The notes beneath the pieces are model-generated. The model was not told the origin of the DNA, searched no databases, and saw only the letters and a program-made list of their open reading frames with translations. A stretch of DNA of 64,000 nucleotides, from the NCBI GenBank assembly GCA_000004985.1, contig GG738870.1. One strand, 5' to 3'. Position 1 is the stretch's first letter, and every line of letters begins with the position of its first letter. Origin of the DNA: Naegleria gruberi (lineage: Eukaryota). The translations under genes were made by a program, and so were the position numbers. This document shows positions 7,902-50,113 of the stretch, in pieces.

Positions 7902-10900
7902 TTATTGTTGTGTTGTTTGATTATTTGGTTCAAATGACATTGAAAGTTCAATAAGCTTGTCCTCATTAAAGTGAACCATATTAATTAGTTTTGATTTGAG
8001 TTCTGTCACATTCTTCAAGTCATATTCTTTTTGATATCTCTTGATACCACCTTGAATGACAAAGGCAAGTTTTTGTCTCTTGAAAAAGTTGATAATTCCC
8101 TTCTCCTCATTAATATAGTCCTTGTTACCGTCTTCAATGAATGTCAAATCAGTGAGGTAGAGTCCAATGAATGGAATGAGTGGAGGTGTACATTCCTTCA
8201 TGATGGTTCTCATCTCTTTGTAATTCTTGAGTGTGGAAACTACCTTTTCCAATTCCTTATATTCTTCCATGTGTTTCTTTGGAACTTGAGACCACGCTTT
8301 TTTGAGTCTTGCGATAGGAGCACTTCTCAAGCCACCAACAATTTCTTTCAGTCCATTGAAATTGTTGAGCCTTCTCAATTCTCGTGCAATCTTGATGAAT
8401 TTACGAATGGCCTTCACTCTCTTTTCTTCCTTCTTATTGTCGAGAATGGTGTGAGCGACCCACAAGACAACTGTATTGGTTCTTTGAATCATTTCACATA
8501 TATTTGGTGCACCAATCTTGTTCTTGTTCCATGCTTGTCCTAGACATTCTTTAGGTTGAATTTTTTGGAAACTGTTAAATGTTAAATAACTATTAGATGT
8601 GAAAAAATTGAAAACTTACATTGCACTTTCTAGCAGAGTTATTTGACGAGCAATTTCAATACTGCTCCAATCTAGAACCTTAACTTCTACCAAATTTCTG
8701 AAGGATTTCCTAAAAGAGGATGGATAGACTGGTTTTGGAGCATTCGCCTTTTCTTCATCTTCATTTTCATACTCTTTGATTTGTTTTTCTAGGTATTGTT
8801 TTTGGACACTTGCCAAAGTATCTCTCTTAGTTTTAATTCTCTTGAGTTCAGTTCTCAAATTGTCTGCCAATTTTTCAAAAGTCTTGGCCATGTGATTTTC
8901 AATAAAGTTCGACAATAATCTTGTTAATCCTGGATTACTCTTAAAGTCATAGCTATGATCTGAAATCCATCTCTTCAAAATACCATAAATATTAATTCTA
9001 ATTGGTGCCAAGACTGACATTTCAAATTGGGCAAAGAGAGCAGAATTGGATCTTACTTCATTATTAGGTGGAGGCAAGTTCCACTTTAAACTCAACAATT
9101 CTAGGAACTTCTCGGCGCTTGTGAATGAATGATAGGTCAAGAGGAAGGCATCCTTGATGGCCATATCTTGAACACTATTGGAAACTGTCATTCTTTCAAC
9201 AAGCTTTTCAATAGTTGCTCCAATTAGTGATCCATCCTCACCAAAGGCAACATTCACACCAGCAACCTCAACTTCATCGAATTTTGCATGGTCAATAGAT
9301 CTTCTAGCCATAAGAGCATCTAAATCTTCGGCATACCTAGCTTCAGGTCTCTCCAAACTCGAGACTGATCTCAAGTGCTTTACAATTTGTTTGGTTTCTT
9401 GAGCTGAGAGGAGAGAACCAGAGAGAATGGAGCGAATATAGTGAATCCAACGTCTTCTTTCCTCTGGAGTTTCACACTCAAAGCATTTTTGTTTCTCTGG
9501 AGCATAGACCAATTTAAATCCCTTCTCTCCATACTTTTCCACAATGCATGTTGTGTCAATATAGTACAATTTCTTCTCCCTCTTGAAATTATTGTCCTTG
9601 TTGAGCCAACTGATGATTAGAACATTCTCAAAGAGGTATGCTTCACATGGTGGACTCCTTCCATTCTTTTTAACCTTATAAATGAGCTTATCATTGGTAT
9701 CGTAATAGTTTGCCAATGGGGAGGATTCACCTGCTTGAACAGAGTAGACGAATTTAGGCATTCGGGGAACTGCCTCCTCGAGAATTGATTTTCTACGTGG
9801 TCTCTCGATTTTATAGACTGTAGATTCTCTCTCACTAATGGAAACTCTCATTGAAGAACCCAAATTATATTCCAAATCAAAAGCTGTATACCTTTCCAGG
9901 TTTTCAATGTTCAATCTGTTTTGAATTTCCAAAGTCTTATTGAGCTGATAAGCCATTTCTAATATATCACTATTGGTTATCATTTTCTTTTCCAATTTAT
10001 AGATTGCTGTTTCCAATTTGAGACATGGATGATCTTCTGGAATGAGAGGATGGAAAACATCACGGAATTGAACTAAATAGTATGTCAAACGTATAGTTGG
10101 TTGTTGAATAATTTGTTCAAAGGTTAAAATATCAGTAATGAGCTTGTCTTTCTTTTGAGATTCCCTTGAAGCAACATCCAACTTGTCCTCAATCAGTGTC
10201 TTTAATTGCTTATCAGAATCTAACAGAATTTTTTGAATTCTATAACGAAGACCTTTCTTTGTATATTCAACCAAATACTGATCGATATATTTGGTGATCA
10301 ATGTGTCTTGAACAAACTCCAAAATGATATCACCAAAATCATCTAACCACTGATCATTGGCCTCAGAGACAGTTTGTTCAGCCAAGTGTCTCTTCAATTG
10401 CATCAATCTCAAATGCTTCCTATCAGCACTAAATGAATTAATCAACATGTTAAATAACTTTTCTATAATTTGAACCTCTCCATCATCGTTATTTCTCTTA
10501 CTAATCACTTCCATAATTTGATTCTTATAAAAACTTGGTAAAATATATCCCAAATGACTCAAATATTCCTCCTCTCTCTGAATAAATCTCTTCAGACACA
10601 AACTTAATTGTTTCTTTGGAATTTGAGGTTTTGGTTTGTTAGGTTTTGATGGAGAATCAAAAACCAACTCCTCCACTGGTGATGCTTCTCTATATTTAAC
10701 CATAATTCTTTGTTGAGCCTTACTTTTCACATTTTTCAATGATGAAATTCTTGGTAATTGTTGAGCTGATGCATTTTCGAATTGTTTAATTCTTTCATTG
10801 ACACTGACTAGATCAAAAGCTCCCAAAATTCTTCTTGCAAAACTCAAATCTTGTTCTTGTTCCTCTCTTTCACTAATGTCTTGTTCTTGATTGGTTTCGT

Positions 10901-25220: not shown

Positions 25221-26664
25221 TGACAAGTAATCAGCACATTTACACGATTGCCAAAAACTTGAATATTGAACAAGACAAAATTGAAGAAATTGTTGACTGT
25301 GTCTTCAAGGTTGGTTTCGGATTTTGGTTTCTAATATGTTTTTGCAAAGGTAACAATTCATAATTCTTCAGCAACACGGAAAGTTGAACTGTTCGTAGTT
25401 AAAGCTGTACTAAAGTCAAACCATGCTGAAGCAGAAAGTAGAAGAAACTTTAATCATAAGCACTTGATGAAAACCTTTCTAATAAGAAATTTCACTTCTG
25501 CTACACATTATTATTTATTCAGTGAATATGTTGGCGAGCAAAACTTGGTACAATACCGAAAAAATGTTAAAGAATTGCATGAGGAAAGAGTTTGGGATTT
25601 TATTAATCAAATGTCAAAAGCTCTCAATTACATGAATTCATATCCACATTTTACCATTCATAGAGATTTTTAGACAGTTGTAGGTAGATAAAATTTTGTC
25701 CCCAAATTTTTTTTGGCCAAGTCGAAACTCCAGCCATTTTTAGCTTGCGATTTTAAAAAATGTTACAAGTCGAGAATAAACCGTTACATTAGTTGGCGCC
25801 ACGAAAGAAGACGTTACACTTTCATCAAATAAACTTTAATTTCATCAAACAAAAAAAACCAAACCTCTCTTCACTTTTTGGTTGTTTTCCAACACAGGAT
25901 TTCACTATTGGTGCAACAACAACAACATCTTGAGAAATAACATTGTCCTCCAACACTTTCTTCATGTCCCGTTTTTGTTGTCCCCAAGCCAAGCCTTTTA
26001 GACTTGTAAAAAAATATTGGTCAGAGCAACAAATGTCCATTACCTACAACTGTCTAGAGATTTTAAATTGGAAAACATTATTCTAAAGAGTGGACATGAT
26101 TTTCATCTTGTTTTGGCTGATTATGGATTATGTAAGAGTGAGCTCACTAATTATGTGATCAGTGACAGGGGAACATTTGAATTTAAAGCACCAGAATTGA
26201 AAAATCAAAAAGATGAACAAGATGTAGAATTCCCTTTCAAATGTGATGTTTATTCATTTGGGAGATCAATCATTCATTTCATTTTGGGAAGTCAATTTTT
26301 AACTCTCGCTCAAAATGAAATCATCCTTAAAAACGATCCAAATAAGAAAACAGTGATGGATCACCTTATGGATCATAAACCATCTGAGGCCCTTTTCGAA
26401 TTGATTGAGAATATGATTGAGGAAGATCCAAAGTTTAGATTTGATATTAAGGAAGTAATTGCCTTTTATGAAAACAACAGACCAAGCAAATCAAAGACAT
26501 CCTTAGTCTTTCCAAAACCTGGGGAAATGAAACAGAAGATATCTAACAAAACCCCAAATCAAAGAACATCTAATTCCACTTCCTCCTCCAACACTATTTC
26601 ACGCTCTAGTCAAGGAATATCCAAACAACATAAAACCAAAGATAGGAGAGGTACAAAAAGATAA
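25221..26664 (+). pseudogene. Tandem paralog of the 24085 kinase. It is N-terminally truncated with no glycine loop, and its catalytic-loop codons are interrupted by a 386-bp transposon, so it is a probable pseudogene.
   Basis: Exon 1 is MTSNQHIYTIAKNLNIEQDKIEEIVDCVFK, which ends at the same VFK|GTTTG junction as paralog 1 but lacks GxGxxG. Exon 2 is ...YLFSEYVGEQNL...HRDF. It is followed by the MITE at 25671..26056 and then resumes in the same frame with KLENIILKSGHDFHLVLADYGL...APELKN. An in-frame TAG is created by the first 3 nt of the insert. Confidence 0.55.
25671..26056. mobile_element. hAT-like non-autonomous DNA transposon (MITE) of 386 bp. It has perfect 16-bp TIRs and a perfect 8-bp target-site duplication, and is inserted in the kinase coding sequence.
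   Basis: TIRs TAGACAGTTGTAGGTA ... TACCTACAACTGTCTA. Direct repeat GAGATTTT at 25663..25670 and 26057..26064. Host codons on both sides are in the same phase (aga gat ttt), so precise excision restores HRDFKLENIIL. Confidence 0.65.
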
Positions 26665-27277
26665 TTCTAATTCCTTATAATCATTGATGGTTGTTCAAAC
26701 TCTTGATTGTAATGGACCTGTCATATTAAATTAAGAGTAATAGAATTTTTCGTGTCTCTAATCAAGCGATCACTCAATGTTGTGCACTTTCACTCTGGTT
26801 TGAAGTTTATTTCGATTGTTCTCATAGCTGGATGAGAATGAACGAATCAAATGATTGAAAAATCAAGATTGCTTCCATTACAAAAAGTGTAATATGAAAG
26901 GTTATCAATGAAATGCTCAATTTTACAGAAGCTCAATTGGTGATTCTTTGGAAATCCCATCAAATTTTCATAGTTAGGATAAGCCGTCCGAACAACTGAT
27001 AATAATTGAATATTGCAACTTATCGTACTTTCAATATTGGATTTTTTTTCATTCCAAGATATTCCACACATACTATTGAACATGTGCACAATCCAACCAT
27101 TGAAGTTCTTTCATTCTGTTCTTGTTTAATTCCCCGCACTGATTAACAAAGACCAAATGAACAATGTCCAAAATCTGTGGCTACTCTCTTTTTGGAACAT
27201 TATTCATCTTCTTTCATACCAAAAAAATCAATATATACTAATCAAACGAAACCTTTCAAATCTTTAAAAACTGGAAC

Positions 27278-27699
27278 ATGTTTCACTTCTTGAAAACAAT
27301 CAACAAACAAAAAATGAAAAGATTCGTTTCAATCTTATTGATTGCATTGACTTTGGCAATTCTTGCACTTTCCTTCACTTCTGGAGTTTCTGCTGAAGAA
27401 TCAACAACTGCTGCCTCAACTCTTTCCTTGTACATTAAAAAGAATAAAACAAGAAGAGAAATCTTAAGAGATTCAAACTCAACAAGAAGCTCAACAAGTA
27501 CATTGACACCTATGGAAGAAAGAGAAGAGGATTGAAGAAATTTGGAAAGAAGAGAATTATTAGAAAGAAGATTGATGTTTACGGAAAGAAGAGAAGATTG
27601 AATAAGAAGAGAAGAATTGACACTTATAGAAAGAAGAACAGAAAGAATAGAAGAGGTGGAAAGAAGTATAAGAAAGTTGACCTCTACAAGCGTAAATAA
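27278..27699 (+). CDS. Putative secreted polybasic tandem-repeat peptide. A signal-peptide exon (27278..27429) is probably joined by a 29-nt GT-AG intron (27430..27458) to a K/R-rich repeat exon ending at the TAA at 27697..27699.
   Basis: Signal peptide MKRFVSILLIALTLAILALSFTSGVSA. The downstream frame encodes NLKRFKLNKKLNKYIDTYGRKRRGLKKFGKKRIIRKKIDVYGKKRRLNKKRRIDTYRKKNRKNRRGGKKYKKVDLYKRK*. It has a periodic [KR]n-[IV]-D-x-Y unit repeated 4 times, and that frame has no ATG. The minus-strand S/L-rich ORF 27283..27729 is its mirror image. Confidence 0.45.
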
Positions 27700-27967
27700 T
27701 TGAAACAAATCTGCAAATTTTTGAATCAATTTTGCTAATAGTAAAGCACAGATGTGAGTCCATTAGAATCTGTTTTCTTAATGAAATTACAACCTAGACT
27801 TGTGCAAGTGGTCATGAATATTTAGTCGTTTAATCATATCAATTTGTGCAATTAGATTAAATGGACAGGAATGGTGACAATCCCACTACAGTCTTTGAGT
27901 GATTGAATAGTGAAGGCAACAAGGACAGTTTTGCTGTCTTTGTTGAATCATTTTTCTTTATTGAAAA

Positions 27968-29239
27968 TTATCTATCATTAATTCTGTACAATGCTTCATC
28001 CAGCAAATTAATGCCCAATGTTGAAATAAATTTGAACAACCAACATTGACCATCATCATCAATCTTTACAAAATCTTGTCCAATCCATTCTTTCTTAAAT
28101 GTTGAAATAGCTTGTTCTCTATTTGATAAACCTCTTTGTTCATCCCCATCAGTTTCGTCTTGTTCAGATTCTTCATCCTCATCATTCTCCTCTTCCTCGT
28201 CAGCTCCATTCCCCTCACTTTGTTTCAAGATGAGTTTAGTTTGGTTTTTTGGTTTTTTCAAGTCACTAGCTTGATCACTGTGTAATCTAGATACAGAAAT
28301 AGAAATACCTTTTTCATGAGCTTCACCACCATAGGAAACACTATAGTCAACATCAATCCTCATAGAAAAAGGAATGAGTGCAGTGTAATAATCCAATGTA
28401 AAGTGAATAGTTGATATTGTATTGTTAGTATCTCCATCATCAGTTACACTAATATAGGTCAACTTGTGATCTACAGATGTAATGTGAAATCTTGAATAAA
28501 GGGATGGTGCAATAAGAGTAGTATCAGCATAACTACTATCCTGATGGGTAGTTAAAAAGAAAGCTCTCACAGGTCCAATTCTTGAATGTTTGTTAAAACT
28601 TGCGTGTTTTAACAAACAAAATTCCTTCATAAATTGATATGAGTGCTTTTTAATCATCTCCTTGCCACTCTTTTTAAATATAGTTGGTTTTGTTGTAAAA
28701 CGAGTAGTTCTGTTAATTTCTACATATGTATCATTGCTATCGTATTGTGTTGGCCATTTAGTCCAATTTTTCAAACTTTCCAATGTCATATCCCACAATC
28801 TACAAAACAATTCTTGCCACATTCTTTCCTCATCAATCATACCTTCATACCAAGAACGACAAACCAAAAACACTGATCCATTCAATACACTTTCCAAATC
28901 CATAAATGGAACAATCGAATAGGCAACAACTTCTGGTGGTAATGATTTGATTAAAGAAGGTACACGTTCCATTTCATATTTTCTCTTCTTTCTTACCAAT
29001 ACATCCATCATCAAATCACAAAATTCATCATAATTTCGTACTTTCTTATCATCATTCTTTTGATAATTTTCATAACAAGTTGATTCAACAAACTTGAGCA
29101 TGTGTTCATCTACTTGTTCAATTCTTTTCTTTTCCTCCTGTAAGAATTTTTCATAGAGTCTTGATGATGATTTATTGGATGCTGATTTTTGGTTCTTCTT
29201 TGGTGCTTTTTTTGTGGTGGCTTTTCTCTTTGGTGGCAT
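27968..29239 (-). CDS. F-box protein with a basic N-terminus (MPPKRKATTKKAPKK...).
   Basis: F-box motif LPPEVVAYSIVPFMDLESVLNGSVFLVCRSWYEGM. The likely start is the ATG at residue 107 of the ORF (plus 29237-29239 is CAT). The part of the ORF upstream of that is a nucleotide tandem repeat, not plausible protein. Confidence 0.55.
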   Translation of the reverse strand: MPPKRKATTKKAPKKNQKSASNKSSSRLYEKFLQEEKKRIEQVDEHMLKFVESTCYENYQKNDDKKVRNYDEFCDLMMDVLVRKKRKYEMERVPSLIKSLPPEVVAYSIVPFMDLESVLNGSVFLVCRSWYEGMIDEERMWQELFCRLWDMTLESLKNWTKWPTQYDSNDTYVEINRTTRFTTKPTIFKKSGKEMIKKHSYQFMKEFCLLKHASFNKHSRIGPVRAFFLTTHQDSSYADTTLIAPSLYSRFHITSVDHKLTYISVTDDGDTNNTISTIHFTLDYYTALIPFSMRIDVDYSVSYGGEAHEKGISISVSRLHSDQASDLKKPKNQTKLILKQSEGNGADEEEENDEDEESEQDETDGDEQRGLSNREQAISTFKKEWIGQDFVKIDDDGQCWLFKFISTLGINLLDEALYRINDR

Positions 29240-29336
29240 TTTTTTTTGGTGAGGTTTACTAATCGCGAGTTGCACTTTTATTGTAACGAAGATGGAGTTT
29301 GAAGTTTTTTTCGACTGTTTTTTGGAATAATTTATG

Positions 29337-29410
29337 ATAATGTTCATGATTACAACAAGAATGTTCATGGTCATGTTTACAATCAGAATGTTCATCACAG
29401 CTCTCCCAAC
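29337..29410. repeat. Imperfect tandem repeat of 21-27 bp with core AATGTTCATG, 3-4 copies, in the 5' flank of the F-box gene.
   Basis: ataATGTTCATGattacaacaag / AATGTTCATGgtcatgtttacaatcag / AATGTTCATCacag. Confidence 0.35.
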
Positions 29411-29588
29411 ATGTTGATATTCAAAGTATTGATTATATTGGCTAGATTCTGAATCATTTGCAGACAAAAATTCTGAAGTGAAAATTTCCAAGCTATTAAC
29501 GTGATCTTTTTCCCAGAAATTAGTTTTCCATTTAAAGAAGTCTTGGACAATATTCAATCTGGTGCATTATATATAATGAAAGCAAAAA

Positions 29589-29706
29589 GACTACAGCACC
29601 ACAGGTTCCCAAGTTGTCTCCAACCTCAGTACTGATGTGGCTCGACGATGCTTAACTTCTCAAATCGGACGGGATGAGGTGCATTCATCGTGATATGGCC
29701 GTAGCC
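29589..29706 (-). rRNA. 5S ribosomal RNA gene, a single dispersed copy, followed by an oligo-T terminator (plus-strand A5 at 29584..29588).
   Basis: Minus-strand sequence GGCTACGGCCATATCACGATGAATGCACCTCATCCCGTCCGATTTGAGAAGTTAAGCATCGTCGAGCCACATCAGTACTGAGGTTGGAGACAACTTGGGAACCTGTGGTGCTGTAGTC. It matches the eukaryotic 5S consensus (CTACGGCCATA, CCCGTCCGAT, AAGTTAAGC, AGTACT, GGGAA, GGTGCTGTAG). The 5' and 3' ends pair to form helix I. Confidence 0.85.
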
Positions 29707-31489: not shown

Positions 31490-33138
31490 TCATACAATCA
31501 TGCAATTATTTGTTGAGTCCATCAAATGGCTTTGACTTGCAGATTTAACTCTATTGTTAATGGCCATCCTTTCAAAGTACTGTAATCTTTGGACACTCAA
31601 AGGTTTAAAATTGACTTTGAGATTTGGGAATAGATGGAAAAGGTTTGGATTAACTGAGAGAACATTTTCTAATATTTTCTCATCAAGATACACATCTTTC
31701 AATAATGCACATTCTACCAGATTTGGATCAACCTTGAAAATTGATTGAAGATGTTCACGAGAGGATAGCAGATTAGTTAATTGGCCAATATTAAATTCAC
31801 TAAATATATTTGGATTCGCTTTAAAACATTTGACAAGCAAGTCATTGGATAATCCATGTAAAAAAATAAGAATTTTAGGATTTTTCAATATAAGTTCAAA
31901 TATTAATTCCTCATCCAGAACTACTTCCTCAAGAAATTGTCTACTAAATGAAAATAACAAAATTGAATCTTAATTGCCTTACGAAACAGATTCTTATGAT
32001 TATGCAAGTAATGCGGAATGTCAAAAGGTCTTTTTTTCTCCAAAACATCACTTACATATTTTTTCAATAAATGATTGGTCAATTCATCATCATTAGGACG
32101 ATTACTAATAATATGGTCAATAATCCTATTAGAACAGTCATTTTCGTATAGCCAATTAATTAATTCTTTGTTCTGTCCAATAGTTTCTGGAATATTCACA
32201 ACATTTTGGCAATCAGTAGACATTGCTAATTTGAATGTTTCAACGTCCTCTCTTACAATCTCATTAAAGTAATCATAATTTTTACCTGAAAATCTTATGA
32301 ATTTTCTTGCCATTTGAACATCTTCGACATATCTCAGCATTTCAATACGATACTTATACAATTTTCCATTAATCATTATTGTATCATATTCCTTTATCTC
32401 AAATTCAATTTCGTCTTTCAGCCATTTGTAAAACCTCAACATAGATAGTGGGTATCTCTTCACAATTTCTTTCATCATTTCTATAACACTCAGGGTATTT
32501 TTCAAACTTTTGAAAGTGTTACTTTTTGAAAGACATTTCCTCAATATATCAACATCATCTAATAGAGTTTCTCCAATGAATATAATGTTTCCATAAGTTT
32601 TACCCAAAGATTTCAGTACCATCCCCTTATCATTTCGAATATCTGTCTTACAAAACTGAAGAGATTTGGGTTTTGATTCAAGAGCTGATGAAATTATATC
32701 TAAATCAATACATTCCACTTTCTTTAAAGCATCTTTTGAATATTTCACAACATTTAAGGCAAAACTCTTCTTTTTCCACAAGCCACAATGGAAGAGGAGC
32801 ATCTCTTTCTTTTTCCTAATGGCCTGAAGCATAAAATCTTCATCTTCCATGAAAGAGTGTATAAATGGAAAATGGTAATCTTTTACCAGATATTCTAATA
32901 AAAATTGTTTTTTAATTTCTTTTGTCGGGATGGAATTGTATAATTCAAAAACAAATTTTCTTTTCATCATCTTTGGTCCATGAATGGCCACTAAATATTT
33001 CCAATATTCATTCAATTTTTGTAAACATTCTTCTCTTGTCTTGTTCATGGTATGATTTAAATTGATAAAGTTGGTTGACAACTTGTTGATCGGTGTGGAA
33101 TCTAAAACAATAACCACTTGTCCATAGTGTGGTGACAT
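31490..33138 (-). CDS. Hypothetical alpha-helical protein. Two overlapping ORFs, 31921..33138 and 31490..31960, are probably joined by a short intron or frameshift.
   Basis: Long ORFs with coding-like composition and K/E/L-rich repeats. No catalytic motif recognised. Confidence 0.35.
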
Positions 33139-33290: not shown

Positions 33291-35745
33291 TTATTGACAC
33301 ATATTTTCTGCTCTCCATGTAAATGCTTTAGTAACAGGTGGATAAAGAGCTGCCAAAAGAGCCAAAGTAAGATAAATCAAATAAAGTCCGATCAAATAAA
33401 CACCATACAGTTTTGGAGCTCTGAATTTGAAAGCAGGAACAACAATCACGGATGAAATTAGTGATATCAGCAAGAAAATGAATGAAACATTAACTGTTGG
33501 ATCTTCAGTGAGAGGGAAGCAGAACTTTGTCAACTGTATAGGATTAAATGTTAAGGCAACAAATAAACCGATCAATAAATTAAGCATAGGTCCAGCAAAT
33601 ACAGCACCCAGAGCCATACTAGGATATCCTTGCTTTGAAATCACAATATCTTCAAGTCCAAATATTAAAAACACATCTAAATTAATAATTACTTACCAGC
33701 AATCATATCTGAGATTGAATTTCCCCAAGACAAAACTGTAATAGCCAATACTGAGGTTGGAATGCCAACACTCAAACCTACTGCATCCAAAACATCCAAT
33801 AATTCATTTGCAACAATAAATATCCAAAAGATACACATTGGGAATGCAAACACAACAAATATTGGATGATATCTTGGAGGCTTATTTCTTCTTGTGGTAA
33901 AGAAAATAATAACAGAGAAGAAACTACCCACAATAATCAATATCACAGCAACTGGGAAAACTCCTCCAATCAAAAATATAAACTTATCATAACCAGGTAA
34001 TATCAAGATAAATAGTGGTGAAAATACTGGAATACACATAGCAAACCACTTGTTCCATTCTTCATCTTCACTCTTTGGAATAGTCAAATTTCTCAACAAA
34101 ATCCAAACCCATTCAAATAAGATGAAAGTAATCTTTTGGTACCAAGCCATGTCTGACCATCCAATAGAATCCAAAAACATTAAAACGTATTTCTTTGAGC
34201 CCTTTACCTCTTTCTCTTCTCCTTCCTTATCAGTAGGTTCTTGAACCTTTCTATCACTATTTTCATTTTGGAAATAATCAGTGATAATATATTTGTGTTC
34301 CTTTTCTTCGCCTTCAACATGTTCAGTTTTCTTTGATTCAATGATACCAACTTTAGGAATGTAATATCTTGAAGTAGCAACACGATCCAATGATTTGCTA
34401 TCCTTTACAGAAACTTCCTTGAATATGTCATTTCTAATAAATGTATGTCTCCATCCAGCCCATTGCTCTTCTTCTTCAGATTCACTTCCAGTATCTTCCT
34501 CAACTACTGCCTTGGCATCTGTGTCGATAAGTTCCACTTCTTGGTGTGTATTTTCTGGATTTTGAGAGGTTTGATCATTTTCAGTTTCAGATGGTGTTTG
34601 CTCTTGTGGGATTGAAATGTTGGAAGCCTCCCCTTCACCACTTCCTTCAATCAATCTTTGGCCAAGAGCAGTTTTTTGAAGCTTTGAGGCCTTTTGAGGG
34701 AGCCCCTTAAGTCTTTCTCTTCTTGCTTTGATTCTCTTGTAAACAATTCTTCCAATAATTACTGTTGATACATATACTACATAGATCAATACACAAATGA
34801 TTGATTCCCAAATGAATACTCTTCCGTCAATGTATAAATAAAAAGTGTATGCAACACTAACAATATAAAAGATAACATCTCTAATGAATGGTCTTCTTGC
34901 CAATCCTTTCACATCTGATAAAAGAACAATACCAGCCATAACACAAGATGTCACAAATGTACCACTACCAACTGGTTCACCAACACCAAATTCTGTGTTA
35001 CCATTTGCTACAATACCTACAATCTAATCGAATAATTTTAATTCATTAATATTTCAAGAGATTTTAGAGAACTTACAATAGATGAAAGATCTGTAATTTG
35101 TGTTAAAAAAACTCTATAAAATTCAAGAAACAACTTACCAGGAGCACCATTACCCAAAGCTAAAAGTGTAATACCAGCAAGGTTTGGAGAGAGGTTCAAA
35201 TAATTTGAAATTTTGATAAGGGAAGGTGAAAAGTATGCTTCTGCAGTATCACCCAACAAGTAGAAACATATCAGGACCACAAGAACAGCCAAAATATAAA
35301 AGACTGCTGGAGCCTCATGCAAATCTGTGCAATGAAGCAATTGGAGATACTTGTTGTCTGTGGCACATCCCGATTGATTCCAACTCAGATAACTACATGT
35401 CATATTATAAGGAACCGAGTCAAAATCACAACTTGTGGAAGCATTAATAGATATAAAGTATTGAATCAACACATCCTCATCATCATTTGTATTATTCTTA
35501 GCATCCATAACACTTTCAATCGAATAGTAGTTATTTAATGAATAGTAATCCCTTTGAAAGGATGGAAAATCTGGAATATATTCCCTAGAACTGGCATCCC
35601 TTAATATTGGTGCGTTGGTATGGGAAAAGATCAAGCTTATTCCCAGTGCAAGAGCAGAAACAACGCAGAGAAATAACAATTTGTACATCCACCATCTGTG
35701 TTTTTGCTCCTTTCTAATGCTCGTTCCGTGCAATACACTAACCAT
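33291..35745 (-). CDS. Sodium/calcium exchanger of the NCKX/CCX family (Na_Ca_ex, two alpha repeats). Three exons: 35139..35745, 33697..35016 and 33291..33649.
   Basis: Alpha-1 repeat GDTAEAYFSPSLIKISNYLNLSPNLAGITLLALGNGAPG | IVANGNTEFGVGEPVGSGTF. Alpha-2 repeat AVGLSVGIPTSVLAITVLSWGNSISDMIAG | DIVISKQGYPSMALGAVFAGPMLNLLIGL. Two GTAAGT donors (plus-strand ACTTAC) at the exon ends. A large acidic cytoplasmic loop lies between the TM bundles. Confidence 0.7.
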
Positions 35746-36316: not shown

Positions 36317-37934
36317 ATGGGAAGCTCCGACTATAAAACAAAATTTTCCATCAAGACTGTAGATTCTAACAATCAAACAGTAATTAAATCATTGGAAATA
36401 ACAATAACAAAGGACGATGAAGGACATTACATTCCACAACCAAACTTTTTTACGTGTTGTAGAAAAGGAGATCATGAAACTTTAAAATTATTAATTGAAG
36501 GATTTAAACACGGTTCGCTGACAATGGAAAATATATTGGCAAATAATAAGGATGAAGATAGTACTCATTCGTTTAGTATTTCGGGATTACATATTTTAAC
36601 AAAAATAGCTTCCTTCTTTTATGGAGGAAAATCAGATTCTTCAAGCTCGAGTGTTACCAACTTTCTATCACCCCATGGAAAGAATAGAAGTTTTCAAAGA
36701 TCTCCGCTGCATTATGCCTGTAGATTTGGTCACTTGGAATGTGTAAAATTACTGATCAATGAAGTATCACAACTTCAATTATTAGGTAAGTAGCAAATCA
36801 AATAGCTCATAAATTGACTTATTCATTTCTCCAGGAGAAACTTGTAACAAGTGGACAATTATACACGAATGTGCGAGATTTGGCCGAGTAGATGTATTAG
36901 CATTCCTCTTCTCACATCCTAGGACCATGGAATTTTGTAAAGCAATGTGCTCTAAAGCAACCAAGTTTGGAAGCACACCTCTTCATCTATCGTGCAAGTA
37001 TCGTTACTCTGATACTGCACAATTCCTCTCATCACAATTTATACCCTTCGATAAGATTAGTGTTTCAAGACAACAAAGCTTTCTTCATGTTGCTATTGAA
37101 GAAAAATTGAAACCTTTTGCTGTGGATTTTTTATCTCAATTTATGGCCAACTCTCCAATCACTCATATGAATAGAAAAACTATAATTAATATTGTGGAAT
37201 TGATATGCTCGAAAGATCAATTCAAAACTAATACATTACAATATGCAGCAGCAAAGCCATCAGATCAAATGTATGAAACATTGCTGAGTGCATTAACAAT
37301 TTTACATGAATATATGGAAAATGCTGGAATTGTAAGAAACTTGGTCGGATTGGATTTGGCTGGAAACAGTGTATTGCACTATGCTATGGGAGGAAATAGC
37401 ATGAAATGTGCTTCACTAATCTATCACTATTATTTATTGAGTATTTACCGTAGTAATCCCAACAGTATTGTGATAACTAATCGTAACATTAATGTAAACC
37501 ATGAACTTTTACATTCAAATAATAATCCAATGAATACTCAATCTGGTGTCATGAGACACTCACCACTTTTCCTTGCCTGTAAATATAACCACTCGAAACT
37601 CTTACAAAAATTCCTTCTATTTTACAAAGATGAAATTTATCAAATAGATTCTCAGAAACATTTACAACTGCTATACGAGGGAAACGAATCAAAATATGTA
37701 AAGACTGCACTGTATGACTTTTTAAAAATCAAATCTCAGGAAGAATTTGATTTTATTCTCCAATCATGGAAACAAATTAAGGTAACAGGAGTTGTTGATA
37801 GAATGGGTCATTCACCCTCCAGAGTTAACAAAATCGATGAAAGTGATGAGGAATTACATGAGTTATTTGAGAACTTTAACAAGTGGAAAATTGACTCATC
37901 AATGGCTCCATCAGCATCACTTGCTTTGGAATAA
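36317..37934 (+). CDS. Ankyrin-repeat protein. Two exons, 36317..36785 and 36835..37934.
   Basis: ANK motifs SPLHYACRFGHLECVKLLINE, GETCNKWTIIHECARFGRVDVLAFLF and TPLHLSCKYRYSDTAQFL. A 49-nt intron GTAAGTAGC...TTCTCCAG keeps the frame. Confidence 0.65.
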
Positions 37935-38521: not shown

Positions 38522-39346
38522 ATTAGTTTTGTATTATTCAGAAGAATTTAAATTTTCTCTTCACCGAGAATAATAATCGGTGATTTTAGATTATTCCGTG
38601 TCCTTTTATCAATAAACAAGGGTTTGTTTTATTTAAAAACCTGATGTGATGATATTAATTGAAGAGAATAATGAAGCAAAATTGAAAATATTAACAAAAG
38701 GAGAGAATCATCACAGTGATGATGATGACAATCTAAATATACAATCAATGGAAAACAAGACTGCCACTCCTCAACAACATAAGATAACACACCCCATCGG
38801 CTTCAACCACACAAAAACATCAAGTCTATCAAAATAGGGTGCTAAAAAACAAAAAAAATGATTGGCAGAAACAAGTAAGTAACTGATGCAAGTTACAGAT
38901 TTGGCCGACTCACACTCAAATAACATCATTATCTAACCGGTTGTCTATTTGCATATCCATTCATTACTCAATGTTTTAAATGTTCTCTCATCATTTGATG
39001 AAGACACCTCATCACTTCTCTCGGAAAGCATAATCTAAAAAAAAATCAGTCAATCCTCTCTTCTGTAAGCCACCGTTCACAACCAGCTTTATCGGCAGCA
39101 ACACATTTGATTGATCAACAACAATTGGAAAGAAAAACCTCTACAACAACATCACTCTCTTGTAAAAATTATCACACCAATATTAGTGGTTCAATTCCTT
39201 CTAATTGTAATTTACCAAGCCAACCTCGTAGTAGAAATACAAACAAAACACTAAAAGTAAGAGGAGATTCATCACTCATCACAACTAGTACTAAACAACA
39301 AAGAAATATATCAACATTTGTTTTTGACGAAGACGACGACGAAGAA

Positions 39347-41329
39347 ATGATTCAAAATAATTTGGTTTTTGATTTAACTCCTGAACAAATTGAAAAGGAA
39401 ACTGCTGCCTTAATTGAAAAATCAAGAGCTGTTCATGATTCTGTTGCAAAGCTTGCAGAATCTGAAAGAACTTTCCAATCAGTCGTTTTACCAATTGCTC
39501 AAGATGAAGCCTACTTCTCTGTACATGAAAATAATGTCACATTCCCTTCATATGTTAGTCCAGATAAAGCAGTCAGAGATGCTGCTTCTGCTGCTGAAGA
39601 AAAAATTTCAGAATTCACCATTGATATTTTGATGCGTGAGGATGTGTATAGAGCTGTTAAATATGTTTCTGATAAGATGCAATCTGAATTGGAAAAGTAT
39701 GACGAAGAAGATAAGAGACTTGTGAAGAGAATTCTCAGGGATTACGAAAGAAATGGATTGGGATTACCAGAAGATAAGAGAGCAGTTGTAAAGGATTTGA
39801 AGAATCAACTTTCCAAGTTGTGCATTCAATTCACCAAGAATGTTTCTGAAGATAAGACTGTCCTCCATTTCACAAAGGAAGAATTGGATGGAGTTCCAGA
39901 AGATGTCATTAATGACTTTAAGGTCTCTGAAGAAGATCCAAATAAGAGGGTTGTCTCAATGAAATATCCAGAAGTAATGCCAGTCATGAAATACTGTAAA
40001 GTTGAAGAAACAAGACGTAGATTGGATGTTGCTCGTTCTTCACAATGCCAAGAAGCTAACGTTCCATTGTTCGAACAAGCTGTCAAGATTAGACAAAAGA
40101 TTGCAGAAATTATGGGTTTCAAGACTCACTCTCACTATGTTTTGGATGTCAACATGGCTACTCCAGATGAAGTTTTAACCTTCTTGTACAATCTCAGAGA
40201 TAGACTTTTGGATGGTGGTAAACAAGAACTTGAAGTACTCAAACAATTGAAAGGATCTGAAGTTTTCTCATGGGATTACCTCTACTTGTTGACCAAGCTC
40301 AAGGAAGAACAATACAGTGTCGATGATAACTTGATTAAGGAATATTTCCCATTGGATTATACTCTTGATGGTTTACTGAGTATTGCTCAAGAAACTTTCT
40401 CTCTCAAGTTTGAAGAAGTTAAGGATGCTAAGGTCTGGTTTGAAGGTGTTAAATTATACAATGTTTTTGACAAGGAAACTGATGATCATTTGGGTCAATT
40501 CTATTTGGACTTTTTCGCTAGAGATGGCAAGTATAGCCACTTTGCTGCCTTCCCACTTTCTCCTCACTACTTTGATGCTGAAGGAAAGGAACAATTCCCA
40601 GTCACTGCCATGGTTTGTAACTTTACCAAACCATCAGCTGAAACTGGTGTCTCCCTCTTGAAGCATGATGAAGTCATCACATTACTCCATGAATTCGGTC
40701 ACTTGACTCACGGATTCTTGTCTAAGACTAAGTATGCTAGATTCAGTGGTACTCGTGTAGAAAGAGACTTTGTTGAAATGCCTTCTCAATTCATGGAAGG
40801 TTATGGATGGGAGACTCAAGGTTTGAAGAGATTGTCATCTCACTATAAGACTGGAGAAAAACTTCCAGATGATCTCATCAAGAAGATGATTGATGCCAAG
40901 AATGTTGGTGTTTCACTTTTCAACTTGCGTCAATTGTTCTTTGGTATCTTTGATATGACTTGCCATACTTTTACTTCTGCTGAAGAAGCTGAAAAGCTTG
41001 ACAGTGGTGCTTTGTGGAGAAAGCTTAGAAGAGAGGTTACCTTATTGGAAAATCCAGAAGGTACTAACGGAGTTGCTTCATTTGGGCATCTCATGGGTGG
41101 CTACGATTCTGGATATTATGGATATTTGTACTCTGAAGTTTTCTCTACTGACATGTTTGGAGAATTCAAGAAGCAAGGTATCTTCAATCCAGAAATTGGT
41201 AAGAAGTACAGAAAGCTCATTTTACAAAGAGGAGGATCTAAGGATGGTGGTGTCATGTTGAGAGAATTTTTGGGTAGAGAACCATCTCAAGATGCCTTCT
41301 TGGAAGATATTGGTTTGCTTAAGAAATAA
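39347..41329 (+). CDS. Thimet oligopeptidase / neurolysin / saccharolysin family metallopeptidase (M3A). Single exon.
   Basis: HEXXH zinc site LLHEFGHLTHGF. Conserved M3 C-terminal region GHLMGGYDSGYYGYLYSEVFSTDMF...GGSKDGGVMLREFLGREPSQDAFL. The first in-frame ATG at 39347 gives MIQNNLVFDLTPEQIEKETAALIEK, matching THOP1 N-termini. The ORF track starts further upstream at a TTG. Confidence 0.85.
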   Translation: MIQNNLVFDLTPEQIEKETAALIEKSRAVHDSVAKLAESERTFQSVVLPIAQDEAYFSVHENNVTFPSYVSPDKAVRDAASAAEEKISEFTIDILMREDVYRAVKYVSDKMQSELEKYDEEDKRLVKRILRDYERNGLGLPEDKRAVVKDLKNQLSKLCIQFTKNVSEDKTVLHFTKEELDGVPEDVINDFKVSEEDPNKRVVSMKYPEVMPVMKYCKVEETRRRLDVARSSQCQEANVPLFEQAVKIRQKIAEIMGFKTHSHYVLDVNMATPDEVLTFLYNLRDRLLDGGKQELEVLKQLKGSEVFSWDYLYLLTKLKEEQYSVDDNLIKEYFPLDYTLDGLLSIAQETFSLKFEEVKDAKVWFEGVKLYNVFDKETDDHLGQFYLDFFARDGKYSHFAAFPLSPHYFDAEGKEQFPVTAMVCNFTKPSAETGVSLLKHDEVITLLHEFGHLTHGFLSKTKYARFSGTRVERDFVEMPSQFMEGYGWETQGLKRLSSHYKTGEKLPDDLIKKMIDAKNVGVSLFNLRQLFFGIFDMTCHTFTSAEEAEKLDSGALWRKLRREVTLLENPEGTNGVASFGHLMGGYDSGYYGYLYSEVFSTDMFGEFKKQGIFNPEIGKKYRKLILQRGGSKDGGVMLREFLGREPSQDAFLEDIGLLKK

Positions 41330-43362: not shown

Positions 43363-43459
43363 TAAAATTGGTTTATTTATTAAAATATCACTTGCTAAAA
43401 AAGGTATTTTCCAATTTTGTGTAAAATTTTGAAATTTCAAAATTTAAATAATATCCAGC

Positions 43460-44620
43460 TTATTTCAAAATGTAAACAGCAGAATTTTCCTTACTAGCAA
43501 CAACCAATTCACCATTTTGTCCATTGTAAGCAATTGCCAAATCACATCCATTGAAATTCTTTCCATCGACCTTTTCACAAATCTTGACACCAGATTCCTT
43601 TGTGATTAATTCAATTCTGCATTGTCCACTTGTCTTTTCAATACAGAAAATATCACCATTATCCAAGTGAATAATATCTCCAAGTCTTCCATAATTGTGA
43701 TTTCTATCGAGCTTGTTCAAGACTTTGCCCTTCTTTGACATGGAAACCAATTGATACTTGTTAGTTCCATCTCCAATACACAAATTTCCTTCCAAATCAA
43801 TTGAAACCATAGTTGCATTACTCAATAAACAATTACCATTTGAATCAGAACCCAAAGTATTAGTTACAGAACCATCCTTTCCATTCAAAACTCTAATATT
43901 TGCACTTCTATATTCACTAACAAGTAAATAAACAGTTGAATCACTATCAACACACAAATACAAGTCACCAGTTTCATTGTCAAATGACTTATTCCAGAAA
44001 ACAACCTTTCCATCAAGTGACATTTTAGTGACCCACTTTCTAGAATTACAAAAAACAATTGCATTATCATTGTAATCAATTCTCAAACAAGTAATGGTTT
44101 CTTCCTTAGGTGCCTTAAATTGATATTTGAACAAATGAGTTTTGGCATCGAATACATTAATAGTATAATGACATGCAACAAAAATCAATTGATTTTTAAC
44201 ATCAACTGCACATGTCATTGGATAATCCAAATTAATGTTAGTTTCGTCCTTATCGCCCAACTTGCAAACCTTTTTAAATTCACCACTGAATGGAACTGAT
44301 TTACAACCAACCATGGAAACTTTGTGTTGTGAAAGTTTTGGTGAACGATCGTGAATTTTCTTGTGTAAATCACACAATTTCACACCACCACATTCGGCAC
44401 ATTCGTATTGAGCTGGCCAAGTTTCTCCATGAAACTTTTCACAATGAGAACAGTTATTAGAATTCAAACTCTTCACTTGGGATGCATGATCCTTTGTTTT
44501 GGCAGATGAATTATGGAATGACAAGTGTCCTTCACAGAAATTTAATTTACATGTTGGACATGCATGAGTTGCTTCGGTTTTTTCATCATCTTGAGAACAT
44601 TTATCACAAAAGACAGTCAT
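43460..44620 (-). CDS. B-box zinc-finger plus NHL-repeat protein (TRIM-NHL-like without a RING). Single exon.
   Basis: Two Cys/His B-box-like clusters, CDKCSQDDEKTEATHACPTCKLNFCEGHLSFH and CSHCEKFHGETWPAQYECAECGGVKLCDLHKKIH. The C-terminal beta-propeller repeats are DLYLCVDSDSTVYLLVSE and GELVVASKENSAVYILK. ATG at plus 44618..44620. Confidence 0.65.
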   Translation of the reverse strand: MTVFCDKCSQDDEKTEATHACPTCKLNFCEGHLSFHNSSAKTKDHASQVKSLNSNNCSHCEKFHGETWPAQYECAECGGVKLCDLHKKIHDRSPKLSQHKVSMVGCKSVPFSGEFKKVCKLGDKDETNINLDYPMTCAVDVKNQLIFVACHYTINVFDAKTHLFKYQFKAPKEETITCLRIDYNDNAIVFCNSRKWVTKMSLDGKVVFWNKSFDNETGDLYLCVDSDSTVYLLVSEYRSANIRVLNGKDGSVTNTLGSDSNGNCLLSNATMVSIDLEGNLCIGDGTNKYQLVSMSKKGKVLNKLDRNHNYGRLGDIIHLDNGDIFCIEKTSGQCRIELITKESGVKICEKVDGKNFNGCDLAIAYNGQNGELVVASKENSAVYILK

Positions 44621-50032: not shown

Positions 50033-50113
50033 GCAGGGGTTCCCGAGTGGTCAAAGGGGGTAGACTCAAGTTCTACTGCGCAAGCTTCGTGGGTTCAAAT
50101 CCCACCTTCTGCA
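50033..50113 (+). tRNA. tRNA-Leu (anticodon CAA), a class II tRNA with a long variable arm.
   Basis: GCAGGGG acceptor stem pairs with CTTCTGC. D-arm TTCCCGAGTGGTCAAAGGG. Anticodon stem GTAGA/TCTAC with loop CTCAAGT. T-arm GTGGGTTCAAATCCCAC. T-rich tract downstream. Confidence 0.85.

What the first reader, a model, noticed from the sequence alone, without database searches (positions are those of the whole stretch)
27278..27699. Putative secreted polycationic tandem-repeat peptide that needs a 29-nt intron
A classic signal peptide is followed by DNA whose +2 frame encodes about 75 residues of almost pure K/R with a periodic [IV]-D-x-Y anchor (YIDTY, IDVY, IDTY, VDLY). That periodicity is visible only at protein level. 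The frame has no ATG, so it must be reached by a GT(27430)...AG(27458) intron or a ribosomal frameshift. Extreme net charge plus a signal peptide suggests an antimicrobial or nucleic-acid/polyanion-binding secreted peptide.
Basis: inference. Interest (0 to 1): 0.55.

Follow-up and report, generated by a model that had tools for sequence, protein, structure and literature searches.

The report
Frameshifted secreted polybasic-repeat gene, no intron
This is one copy of a small, uncharacterised Naegleria gruberi gene family for secreted, very basic repeat proteins, and its apparent need for a tiny intron comes from one missing base in the coding sequence, not from splicing.

Summary
The window is Naegleria gruberi nuclear DNA. 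The signal peptide, the open K/R-rich frame and the four [IV]-D-x-Y motifs are all present and are not chance. GenBank already annotates the locus as hypothetical protein NAEGRDRAFT_68008.

Four N. gruberi paralogs and three metagenome relatives show the same protein. The relatives whose N-terminal half is intact read from signal peptide into the basic repeats in one uninterrupted frame. DNA alignment shows that the window lacks one base (AAGAATAA-AACAAG versus AAGAACAATAACAAG, at 27447/27448). The proposed intron aligns codon for codon with coding sequence of the relatives.

The candidate intron has donor GTACAT, acceptor GAG, 59-62% A and 14-17% T. Local introns picked by their consensus donors have GT[AG]AG[TG], 33-47% T and mostly YAG acceptors. 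There is no slippery heptamer and no downstream RNA structure.

This copy carries a one-base frameshift, either a real mutation or an assembly error, and the annotation patches it with a false intron.

The family has no Pfam or PDB relative and is predicted disordered and non-amphipathic. Its function is unknown. My best guess is an electrostatic polyanion binder; a dibasic-processed peptide precursor is the alternative. Interest is modest.

The parts
27278..27313 (+). Upstream in-frame ATG extension (MFHFLKTINKQK). Not conserved and probably 5' leader.
   Evidence: Relatives and the GenBank model start at MKR. The upstream ATG of L002 sits at a different position.
27314..27394 (+). Signal peptide MKRFVSILLIALTLAILALSFTSGVSA, with predicted cleavage after VSA.
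   Evidence: Nearly identical in all members with an intact N-terminus. Hydropathy peak 3.2, small residues at -3 and -1 (by inspection). No dedicated signal-peptide predictor was available.
27395..27447 (+). Start of the mature protein in the ORF1 frame (EESTTAASTLSLYIKKN..), including the conserved ASTLSLYI motif, up to the frameshift point.
   Evidence: Aligns with TNEEQASTLSLYIRKNN of L002/P0126 and with the paralogs.
27447..27448 (+). Site of the one-base deficit: AATAA|AAC here versus AACAATAAC in the intact relative.
   Evidence: Single-column gap in DNA alignment A1. Inserting one base gives a 129-codon reading that aligns end to end with L002. tblastn of P0122 splits into two frames here.
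27448..27699 (+). Polybasic repeat region in the shifted frame (83 codons plus TAA): NKKRNLKRF...KKVDLYKRK*.
   Evidence: synonymous to non-synonymous 10:10, no stops, versus 2:16 in the ORF1 frame.
27502..27513 (+). Motif copy 1, IDTY, followed by GRKRR.
   Evidence: Conserved in five of the seven other family members as Y[IL]D[TS]YG; P0125 and P0127 have KYIGKK instead.
27571..27582 (+). Motif copy 2, IDVY, followed by GKKRR.
27616..27627 (+). Motif copy 3, IDTY, preceded by KKRR.
   Evidence: The D, T and Y of RRIDTY are invariant alignment columns and RR[IF]DTY is conserved in all five sequences.
27676..27687 (+). Motif copy 4, VDLY, followed by the KRK C-terminus.
   Evidence: KK[VF]D.YK[RK]K is the C-terminus of six of the seven other members; the P0128 model continues into a fused downstream gene.
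27430..27470 (+). The 41-nt 'intron' of the GenBank/JGI model XP_002676724. Judged an annotation patch, not an intron.
   Evidence: Removing 27430..27470 from a start at 27314 reproduces P0121 exactly. The segment is homologous to CDS in relatives. Donor GTACAT, acceptor GAG, A 59%, T 17%, versus local introns.
27533..27535 (+). TGA that ends the unspliced, as-assembled ORF1. Its out-of-frame tail ..KTRREILRDSNSTRSSTSTLTPMEEREED has no counterpart in any relative.
27283..27729 (-). 148-codon antisense ORF. A by-product of the polypurine sense strand, not a gene.
   Evidence: TTG start. Synonymous to non-synonymous 2:18 against L002. Long stop-free antisense stretches also occur in L001 and L002 for compositional reasons.

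Best explanation
The locus is NAEGRDRAFT_68008. It is one of at least five Naegleria gruberi paralogs of an orphan family encoding roughly 110-135-residue secretory proteins.

Protein architecture:
- a highly conserved signal peptide;
- a short acidic or neutral ASTLS[LT]YI segment;
- a disordered polybasic tail (about 45-50% K+R) carrying 2-5 [IVF]-D-x-Y motifs, each flanked by KKRR or GKKRR.

In relatives the whole protein is one uninterrupted exon. In this window the coding sequence lacks a single base at 27447/27448. As assembled, translation from the signal peptide therefore runs out of frame and stops at 27533, and the basic repeat is left without a start codon.

Shown: the family membership, the coding frame, the one-base deficit, and the non-intron character of the segment.

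Inferred:
- The deficit is either a genuine recent deletion (a pseudogene or null allele; my estimate is about 0.55) or a consensus error in the draft assembly (about 0.25).
- The intact family protein enters the secretory pathway, loses its signal peptide, and acts as an extracellular or luminal polycation. It would bind polyanionic targets (bacterial envelopes, nucleic acids, polyphosphate, acidic glycans) by charge. The conserved Tyr motifs would serve as specific contact or processing sites.
For: - Organism: the M3 peptidase ORF is 100% identical to an N. gruberi protein on a 418,085-bp contig.
- Family: P0121 (this locus, 97% identity), P0122, P0123, P0124 and P0125; P0126 and P0127; P0128.
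- Family size: an exhaustive HMM search of 1.84 billion representative proteins found only these clusters.
- Continuous ORFs in relatives: the protein sequences and the DNA of L002 (417-nt ORF) and L001.
- One-base gap: alignment A1. The repaired reading aligns end to end with L002, with 87 identical, 21 synonymous and 18 non-synonymous codons.
- Coding frame downstream of 27448: 10:10 synonymous to non-synonymous and no stops in the K/R frame, versus 2:16 with stops in the ORF1 frame.
- GenBank model: it equals removal of 27430..27470.
- Local introns selected by their consensus-type donors: 30-100 nt, T 33-47% and mostly YAG acceptors. The candidate has GTACAT, GAG, A 59-62% and T 14-17%.
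- Nine GT..AG pairs restore the frame by chance.
- No Pfam or PDB relative. AlphaFold2 pLDDT is about 50 over the basic part.
Against: - No transcript or read-level data for this locus could be reached, so splicing of the segment cannot be formally excluded.
- For the same reason, real mutation and assembly error cannot be told apart.
- The downstream frame shows no further decay. All motifs are intact and promoter-like motifs are shared with L002. This fits a very recent lesion, an error, or some rescue.
- The DNA of the N. gruberi paralogs themselves was not retrievable. The nucleotide comparison therefore rests on two metagenome contigs plus the paralog protein sequences.
- The functional part is inference from composition only. 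The sequence is not amphipathic.
Confidence: 0.8

Rival explanations
1. A genuine very short spliceosomal intron is removed from the mRNA (27430..27470 as in GenBank, or 27430..27458). This could be a case of 'intronization', in which former coding sequence is spliced out and thereby rescues a frameshift.
For: GT and AG are present and both versions restore the frame. The public annotation uses the 41-nt version. Introns of 39-53 nt do occur in this window. The downstream frame is undecayed.
Against: The segment aligns codon for codon with CDS of relatives, and one missing base explains everything. The donor GTACAT lacks the +5 G. The local introns were picked by GT[AG]AG[TG] donors, and GTAAGT was the commonest donor hexamer even in the unfiltered scan. 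The acceptor is GAG rather than YAG. Composition is exon-like: 59-62% A and 14-17% T, versus 33-47% T in local introns. Nine alternative GT..AG pairs also restore the frame. The annotation carries no evidence I could see of transcript support.
Confidence: 0.05
2. Programmed -1 ribosomal frameshifting or transcriptional slippage at the A-run (27446-27449) joins the two frames.
For: The shift needed is exactly -1, and it falls next to AAAA.
Against: There is no X XXY YYZ heptamer in the ORF1 frame. Re-pairing tRNA-Lys from AAA to TAA is poor (by inspection). The 121 nt downstream fold no better than shuffles (-7.4 kcal/mol, z = +1.06). Four A's are far too few for polymerase slippage (general knowledge). 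The relatives with an intact N-terminal half are in frame, so the feature is not conserved.
Confidence: 0.02
3. Alternative function for the family. The protein is a multi-copy precursor, not the final product. A kexin/furin-like convertase cuts at the many dibasic sites and carboxypeptidase trims them. This releases [IVF]-D-x-Y tetrapeptides, several of them C-terminally amidated from ..Y-G-K-K-R-R. The architecture resembles fungal KEX2-processed repeat proteins or animal neuropeptide precursors.
For: In-silico cutting at [KR]{2,} leaves recurring IDVYG, IDTY(G), FDTYG and VD[ILF]Y fragments in all six members tested. [YF]G[KR][KR] occurs 3-4 times in most members, and most glycines precede a dibasic pair. 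Conservation is concentrated on the motif, while the basic spacers vary in length. The formal KEP definition is a signal peptide plus three or more similar fragments between KR/KK/RR sites (PMC6339444). A furin-type P domain is reported in some Excavata (PMC2770060).
Against: Precursors need only 2-4 basic residues per site, whereas here spacers of 11-19 mostly basic residues make up about half of the protein. The repeats occupy only about 12-15% of the length, at or below the 15% KEP threshold. Kexin and PAM in Naegleria were not verified. No peptide data exist.
Confidence: 0.15
4. The as-assembled 85-residue (or 73-residue) ORF1 product (signal peptide plus ..KTRREILRDSNSTRSSTSTLTPMEEREED) is the real, selected product of this copy.
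For: It is the only complete ATG-to-stop ORF on the sequence as given.
Against: Its out-of-frame tail has no counterpart in any relative. Downstream of 27448 the ORF1 frame shows 2 synonymous to 16 non-synonymous differences and contains stops in both sequences.
Confidence: 0.03

Closest known systems
N. gruberi paralogs NAEGRDRAFT_71365 (XP_002673524), _71069 (XP_002673814), _68479 (XP_002676161) and _50395 (XP_002675247, N-terminal part), all 'predicted protein'
   Same: Same signal peptide, ASTLSLYI segment, polybasic tail and [IVF]DxY motifs, with the KK[VF]DxYK[RK]K C-terminus in those models that end at the family's stop codon. E-values run from 2e-34 to 7e-24 for the first three and 4.8e-18 for the last.
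   Different: Those with an intact N-terminal half read through as one frame. The window copy lacks one base and also lacks a 15-nt (RKNNR-like) stretch. Two other public models are also flawed: 68479 has no signal peptide, and 50395 is fused to a NOT2-like gene.
Fungal KEX2-processed repeat proteins (KEPs: alpha-factor and ustiloxin-type precursors) and animal multi-copy neuropeptide precursors (PMC6339444, PMC7329392)
   Same: A signal peptide followed by three or more short similar peptides bounded by KR/KK/RR. A Gly precedes the basic pair, as in amidation signals.
   Different: There is no sequence homology. The spacers are long polybasic runs rather than single dibasic sites. Repeat occupancy is about 12-15%. 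The organism is a heterolobosean. Neither processing enzymes nor products have been shown.
Protamines and other K/R-rich polycations (for example Pfam PF00841 Protamine_P2) and cationic host-defence peptides
   Same: Extreme positive charge and predicted disorder. They plausibly bind polyanions by charge.
   Different: The Pfam hit is sub-threshold (15.5 bits against a cut-off of 25) and compositional. The family has a signal peptide and is lysine-rich, and it shows no amphipathic periodicity, unlike helical antimicrobial peptides.
Annotation 'patch' introns placed over frameshifts by ab initio gene finders
   Same: A short GT..AG pair with a length of 2 mod 3 placed exactly over a one-base frame break. 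Splice sites are non-consensus and the content is coding-like.
   Different: Nothing distinguishes this case from such a patch. Only transcript data could show otherwise.

Membership tests
N. gruberi orphan family of secreted polybasic [IVF]DxY-repeat proteins | Significant full-length sequence similarity to other members. | tested here: met
   E = 2e-34 to 7e-24 to paralogs. Profile search returns only family members.
N. gruberi orphan family of secreted polybasic [IVF]DxY-repeat proteins | Conserved N-terminal signal peptide MKR[FI][VI]SILLIALTL... | tested here: met
N. gruberi orphan family of secreted polybasic [IVF]DxY-repeat proteins | Single uninterrupted ORF from signal peptide to the KRK C-terminus. 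| tested here: not met
   One base is missing at 27447/27448. This is a defective or mis-assembled copy of the family gene.
Spliceosomal intron (as seen locally in N. gruberi) | GT..AG boundaries that restore the reading frame. | tested here: met
   However, nine such pairs exist, so this is weak evidence.
Spliceosomal intron (as seen locally in N. gruberi) | Consensus donor GT[AG]AG[TG] and a YAG acceptor. | tested here: not met
   GTACAT and GAG for both versions. The local comparison introns were picked by GT[AG]AG[TG] donors, and GTAAGT was the commonest donor hexamer in the unfiltered scan.
Spliceosomal intron (as seen locally in N. gruberi) | Non-coding character: T-rich, and not homologous to coding sequence of intron-less relatives. 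| tested here: not met
   A 59-62% and T 14-17%, versus T 33-47% in local introns. The segment aligns codon for codon with CDS of L002 and the paralogs.
Spliceosomal intron (as seen locally in N. gruberi) | Absent from mature mRNA. | not testable with these tools
   No transcript data were reachable. The locus was not on record in the assembly collections.
-1 programmed ribosomal frameshift site | Slippery heptamer X XXY YYZ at the shift point. | tested here: not met
   None in the ORF1 frame between 27278 and 27533.
-1 programmed ribosomal frameshift site | Downstream stimulatory RNA structure. | tested here: not met
   MFE -7.4 kcal/mol, z = +1.06, and 174 of 200 shuffles fold at least as well.
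-1 programmed ribosomal frameshift site | Frame break conserved in homologs. | tested here: not met
   Relatives with an intact N-terminal half are in one frame.
KEX2-processed repeat proteins / multi-copy peptide precursors | Signal peptide. | tested here: met
   (by inspection and hydropathy; no SignalP run).
KEX2-processed repeat proteins / multi-copy peptide precursors | Three or more similar fragments bounded by KR/KK/RR. | tested here: met
   IDTYG, IDVYG, IDTY and VDLY after in-silico cutting. Criterion taken from PMC6339444.
KEX2-processed repeat proteins / multi-copy peptide precursors | Repeats occupy at least 15% of the protein. | tested here: inconclusive
   16-18 of about 128 residues, or 12.5-14%, just below the threshold.
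KEX2-processed repeat proteins / multi-copy peptide precursors | A kexin-like convertase (and PAM for amidation) present in the organism, and peptides released. | not tested
   Literature searches were uninformative.
Cationic amphipathic helical antimicrobial peptides | Amphipathic periodicity (a high hydrophobic moment). | tested here: not met
   The maximum and mean hydrophobic moment at 100 and 170 degrees are no better than residue shuffles in three members.
Protamine_P2 (PF00841) | Pfam score at or above the gathering threshold. | tested here: not met
   15.5 bits against a cut-off of 25, for one member only.

The most novel reading that the evidence does not exclude
The family could be a heterolobosean multi-copy precursor. 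Dibasic cleavage and Gly-directed amidation would release [IVF]-D-x-Y(-NH2) tetrapeptides as secreted signals or toxins. That would be peptide-hormone-style processing far outside animals and fungi. A second, less likely, novel reading concerns this copy alone: the frameshift is rescued by a newly 'intronized' 29- or 41-nt piece of coding sequence (probability about 0.05).
Probability: 0.1. Interest if true: 0.75.

Novelty: new variant of a known kind. Interest (0 to 1): 0.27.

Why it matters
For this locus the result is mainly corrective. The tiny intron is not needed. The public gene model XP_002676724 almost certainly contains a false 41-nt intron over a one-base frameshift. Two sister models are also wrong: one lacks its signal peptide and one is fused to a neighbouring gene.

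The wider interest is that N. gruberi carries a lineage-restricted, undescribed family of secreted proteins of unusual design. They have a net charge of about +40 in about 100 residues, with conserved Tyr-containing motifs embedded in KKRR runs. If these are antibacterial polycations of a bacterivorous amoeba, or precursors of small amidated peptides, they would be a new effector or signal class in Heterolobosea. Synthetic peptides and peptidomics would make this cheap to test. As it stands, the function is conjecture.

Tried and rejected
- Exact-protein look-ups of window ORFs and of the N. gruberi paralogs to obtain their DNA and gene context: not on record. Only two ENA metagenome contigs (L001, L002) gave DNA.
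- JGI metagenome scans with family peptide patterns and with a DNA pattern spanning the frameshift (0 or 1 extra base): nothing. No independent copy of this locus was found.
- Literature search for the four locus tags: no paper.
- Searches for N. gruberi expression or secretome data, PAM and kexin in Naegleria: nothing usable. One paper mentions only that a furin P domain exists in some Excavata.
- Pfam and PDB: only sub-threshold compositional hits.
- AlphaFold2 with the 5-sequence alignment: pLDDT 61, one long low-confidence helix, with the basic part at about 50. I judged it uninformative and ran no fold search.
- Amphipathic-helix or strand periodicity: not above shuffles, so I rejected the classical helical antimicrobial-peptide model.
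- Rfam over the whole window: nothing at the locus.
- Antisense 148-codon ORF: rejected as a polypurine artefact.
- Alternative genetic code (TGA as a sense codon, which would extend ORF1): considered early and rejected. The organism is Naegleria (standard code), and the ORF1 frame is not conserved downstream.
- I left the third homolog search unused, because the exhaustive profile search had already bounded the family.

Full report
**Source and context.** The window is nuclear DNA of the amoeboflagellate Naegleria gruberi. A 740-codon M3-peptidase ORF (39107-41329) is 100% identical to an N. gruberi predicted protein on a 418,085-bp contig. The next best hits are N. fowleri (80%) and Willaertia (67%). 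GC is about 33% throughout, matching the published 33% for strain NEG-M (PMC8296547). Neighbouring ORFs are ordinary eukaryotic signalling genes: kinases, RasGEFs and an F-box/Ras-domain protein. The standard genetic code applies.

**Check of the observation.**
- ORF1 (27278-27535) begins with a signal-peptide-like sequence.
- A second frame is stop-free from 27448 to 27696, ends in TAA, and has no ATG.
- That frame encodes 83 residues with 27 K, 16 R, 7 N and only 4 acidic residues. K+R is 52% and net charge is +39.
- It contains four [IVF]D.Y motifs, at 27502, 27571, 27616 and 27676. None of 100,000 shuffles reaches four.

Three points are overstated. K/R is half of the sequence, not 'almost pure'. 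The spacing is irregular (69, 45 and 60 nt). The repeat is also detectable in DNA, as three 33-nt copies at 67-73% identity.

**The protein is real and belongs to a family.** The search returned the GenBank model of this very locus: P0121 = XP_002676724 / NAEGRDRAFT_68008, 114 aa, 97% identity. It also returned three N. gruberi paralogs (P0122, P0123, P0124) and an environmental relative, P0125.

Cluster look-up added P0126 and P0127. An exhaustive profile search of 1.84 billion representative proteins added only one more. This is P0128 = NAEGRDRAFT_50395, whose first 130 or so residues are a family member fused by the gene model to a NOT2-like protein. Nothing was found in annotated N. fowleri, Willaertia or any other proteome, so the family is small and lineage-restricted.

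Members share four features:
- a nearly invariant signal peptide (MKR[FI][VI]SILLIALTL..L..S.T..V.A), except in P0123, whose model lacks it;
- an ASTLS[LT]YI segment;
- a polybasic tail with 2-5 [IVF]DxY motifs, typically KKRR-IDTY-GKK;
- the C-terminus KK[VF]DxYK[RK]K, except in the fused P0128 model.

**How the two frames are joined.** In P0122, P0124, P0126, P0125, P0127 and P0128 the signal peptide and the basic tail lie in one continuous frame. For two of these the DNA is available and shows single uninterrupted ORFs:
- L002, a 2.3-kb ENA contig carrying the ortholog of paralog 71365, has its ORF at 1166-1582.
- L001 has an ORF from the ATG at 110 to a TAG stop.

The nucleotide alignment (A1) is decisive. 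L002 reads TACATTAGAAAGAACAATAACAAGAAGAGAAATCTCAAGAGATTC. There is one gap column, and the other differences are K/R or synonymous changes.

Inserting one base after 27447 gives a 129-codon reading, YIKKN.NKKRNLKRFKL, against YIRKNNNKKRNLKRFRL in L002. It aligns with L002 from start to stop, with 87 identical, 21 synonymous and 18 non-synonymous codons. tblastn of P0122 against the window likewise splits into two frames at this point.

Downstream of 27448 the K/R frame shows 10 synonymous to 10 non-synonymous differences and no stops. The continuing ORF1 frame shows 2:16 with stops. The long antisense ORF shows 2:18. So the 'intron' is former coding sequence, and the frame break is a one-base deficit.

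**Why the GT..AG pair is not an intron.** The GenBank model is reproduced exactly by starting at 27314 and deleting 27430..27470, which is 41 nt. Nine different GT..AG pairs in this purine-rich stretch would restore the frame, so finding one means little.

I located real introns in the same window from ORF breaks. In an unfiltered scan of frame-joining GT..AG pairs, GTAAGT was the commonest donor hexamer. The comparison set was then picked by consensus-type donors (GTAAGT, GTAAGG or GTGAGT). These introns are 30-100 nt long with 33-47% T, and most end in YAG.

The candidate begins GTACAT, with no G at +5. It ends GAG in both versions. It is 59-62% A and 14-17% T, the same as the flanking exon. 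Length alone (29 or 41 nt) would not exclude it. Everything else does.

**Recoding.** The ORF1 frame contains no X XXY YYZ heptamer. The RNA downstream of the shift folds no better than shuffles (-7.4 kcal/mol, z = +1.06). Four A's are too few for polymerase slippage. Relatives with an intact N-terminal half have no frame break. Programmed frameshifting is therefore very unlikely.

**What the lesion is.** I could not reach reads or transcripts. The locus and its paralogs are not in the assembly collections, and two metagenome scans found nothing. Two readings remain.
- A genuine recent one-base deletion, making a pseudogene or a null allele of a heterozygous strain. I favour this at about 0.55. 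A consensus indel in an 8x Sanger assembly is rare per 400 bp. The family also has other irregular copies: P0123 lacks the signal peptide.
- A consensus error, at about 0.25. This copy shows no other decay and keeps upstream motifs shared with L002, which fits an error, though it fits a very recent lesion equally well.

Either way the annotated intron is a patch.

**What the family protein probably does (inference).**
- There is no Pfam family. The best hits are sub-threshold and compositional, for example Protamine_P2 at 15.5 bits against a cut-off of 25.
- There is no PDB relative.
- AlphaFold2 gives pLDDT of about 50 over the basic part, that is, predicted disorder.
- The hydrophobic moment at helical or strand periodicity does not exceed shuffles. 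This is not a classical amphipathic pore-former.

The signal peptide has its positive charge on the N-terminal side and a VSA|E site. This predicts that the polybasic part is luminal or extracellular.

My preferred mechanism is a secreted or phagosomal polycation. It would bind polyanions (bacterial surfaces, nucleic acids, polyphosphate, acidic glycans) by charge, with the conserved Tyr motifs acting as specific 'stickers'.

The main alternative has a probability of about 0.15. It rests on two observations. Conservation is concentrated on the motif, while spacer length varies. Cutting in silico at dibasic runs leaves recurring IDVYG, IDTY(G), FDTYG and VDxY fragments, with [YF]-G-[KR][KR] occurring 3-4 times in most members. 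That is the look of a dibasic-processed, Gly-amidated multi-copy precursor. It is formally close to fungal KEX2-processed repeat proteins, defined by a signal peptide, three or more similar fragments between KR/KK/RR sites, and repeats covering at least 15% of the length (PMC6339444).

Against this alternative, half of the protein is basic spacer, repeat occupancy is only about 12-14%, and the enzymes were not verified in Naegleria.

**Verdict.** The inferred protein is right. The inferred mechanism (a 29-nt intron or ribosomal frameshift) is not supported. The locus is a frameshifted or mis-assembled copy of an already annotated but uncharacterised orphan gene, and the public model hides the frameshift with a false intron. 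The family itself is a mildly interesting, untested candidate for a new class of amoebal secreted polycations or peptide precursors.

Noticed in passing
window 29588-29706 (-): A full-length 5S rRNA gene (Rfam 105 bits). It lies just beyond the upstream (5') end of the 529-codon ORF 27968-29557 (-), about 1.9 kb from the finding.
   Followed up: no
window 50033-50113 (+): An 81-nt tRNA-Leu(CAA), found by both Rfam and ARAGORN, about 450 bp upstream of the RasGEF gene at 50565.
   Followed up: no
window 27227-27236, 27259-27268 and 27717-27735; L002 and L001 in alignment A1: Non-coding motifs are shared between family loci. ATCAATATAT and AATCTTTAAA lie upstream of the ATG in the window and in L002. 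AATTTT(T)G.ATCAATTTTG lies just after the stop codon in the window and L002, and in partial form (AATTTTGTA--AATTTTG) in L001. These are possible shared promoter and 3'-end signals. A 21-nt tandem repeat (27694-27740) overlaps the latter motif.
   Followed up: partly
P0123 (NAEGRDRAFT_68479) and P0128 (NAEGRDRAFT_50395), N. gruberi paralogs outside the window: Two other public models of the family look wrong. P0123 has no signal peptide and instead starts with a TQTQTQ microsatellite-like N-terminus. P0128 joins a complete family member to a NOT2-like protein of about 430 residues.
   Followed up: partly
L001 110-601: The ENA gene call (P0125, 163 aa) reads through a TAG stop as Q. With the standard code the protein ends ..KKVDFYKKK at 139 aa, like the rest of the family. 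The tool itself flags 'translates_to_query: no'.
   Followed up: yes
window 25340-26664 (+): The kinase gene upstream of the finding shows two HRD-type catalytic-loop segments (..FTIHRDF* and ..LSRDFKLENIIL) in different frames about 390 nt apart. This could be an unusually long intron, an internal duplication or a damaged gene.
   Followed up: no
window 8470-8809 (-), 31799-32105 (-), 33618-33834 (-), 34878-35174 (-), 36651-36974 (+), 17357-17625 (+), 43394-43590 (-): Short introns (about 39-100 nt) with GT[AG]AG[TG] donors and mostly T-rich bodies, inferred from ORF breaks. They served as local controls. The published mean for N. gruberi is 203 bp, so this region is at the short end.
   Followed up: partly
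window 45941-48730 (-): A 929-residue ORF combines an F-box (residues 527-566) with a partial Ras/Roc GTPase domain (753-837). This is an uncommon pairing.
   Followed up: no
window 27283-27729 (-): A 148-codon antisense ORF lies opposite the polypurine coding strand. It encodes an L/S-rich product and starts with TTG. Against L002 it shows 2 synonymous to 18 non-synonymous differences, so it is a compositional artefact.
   Followed up: yes
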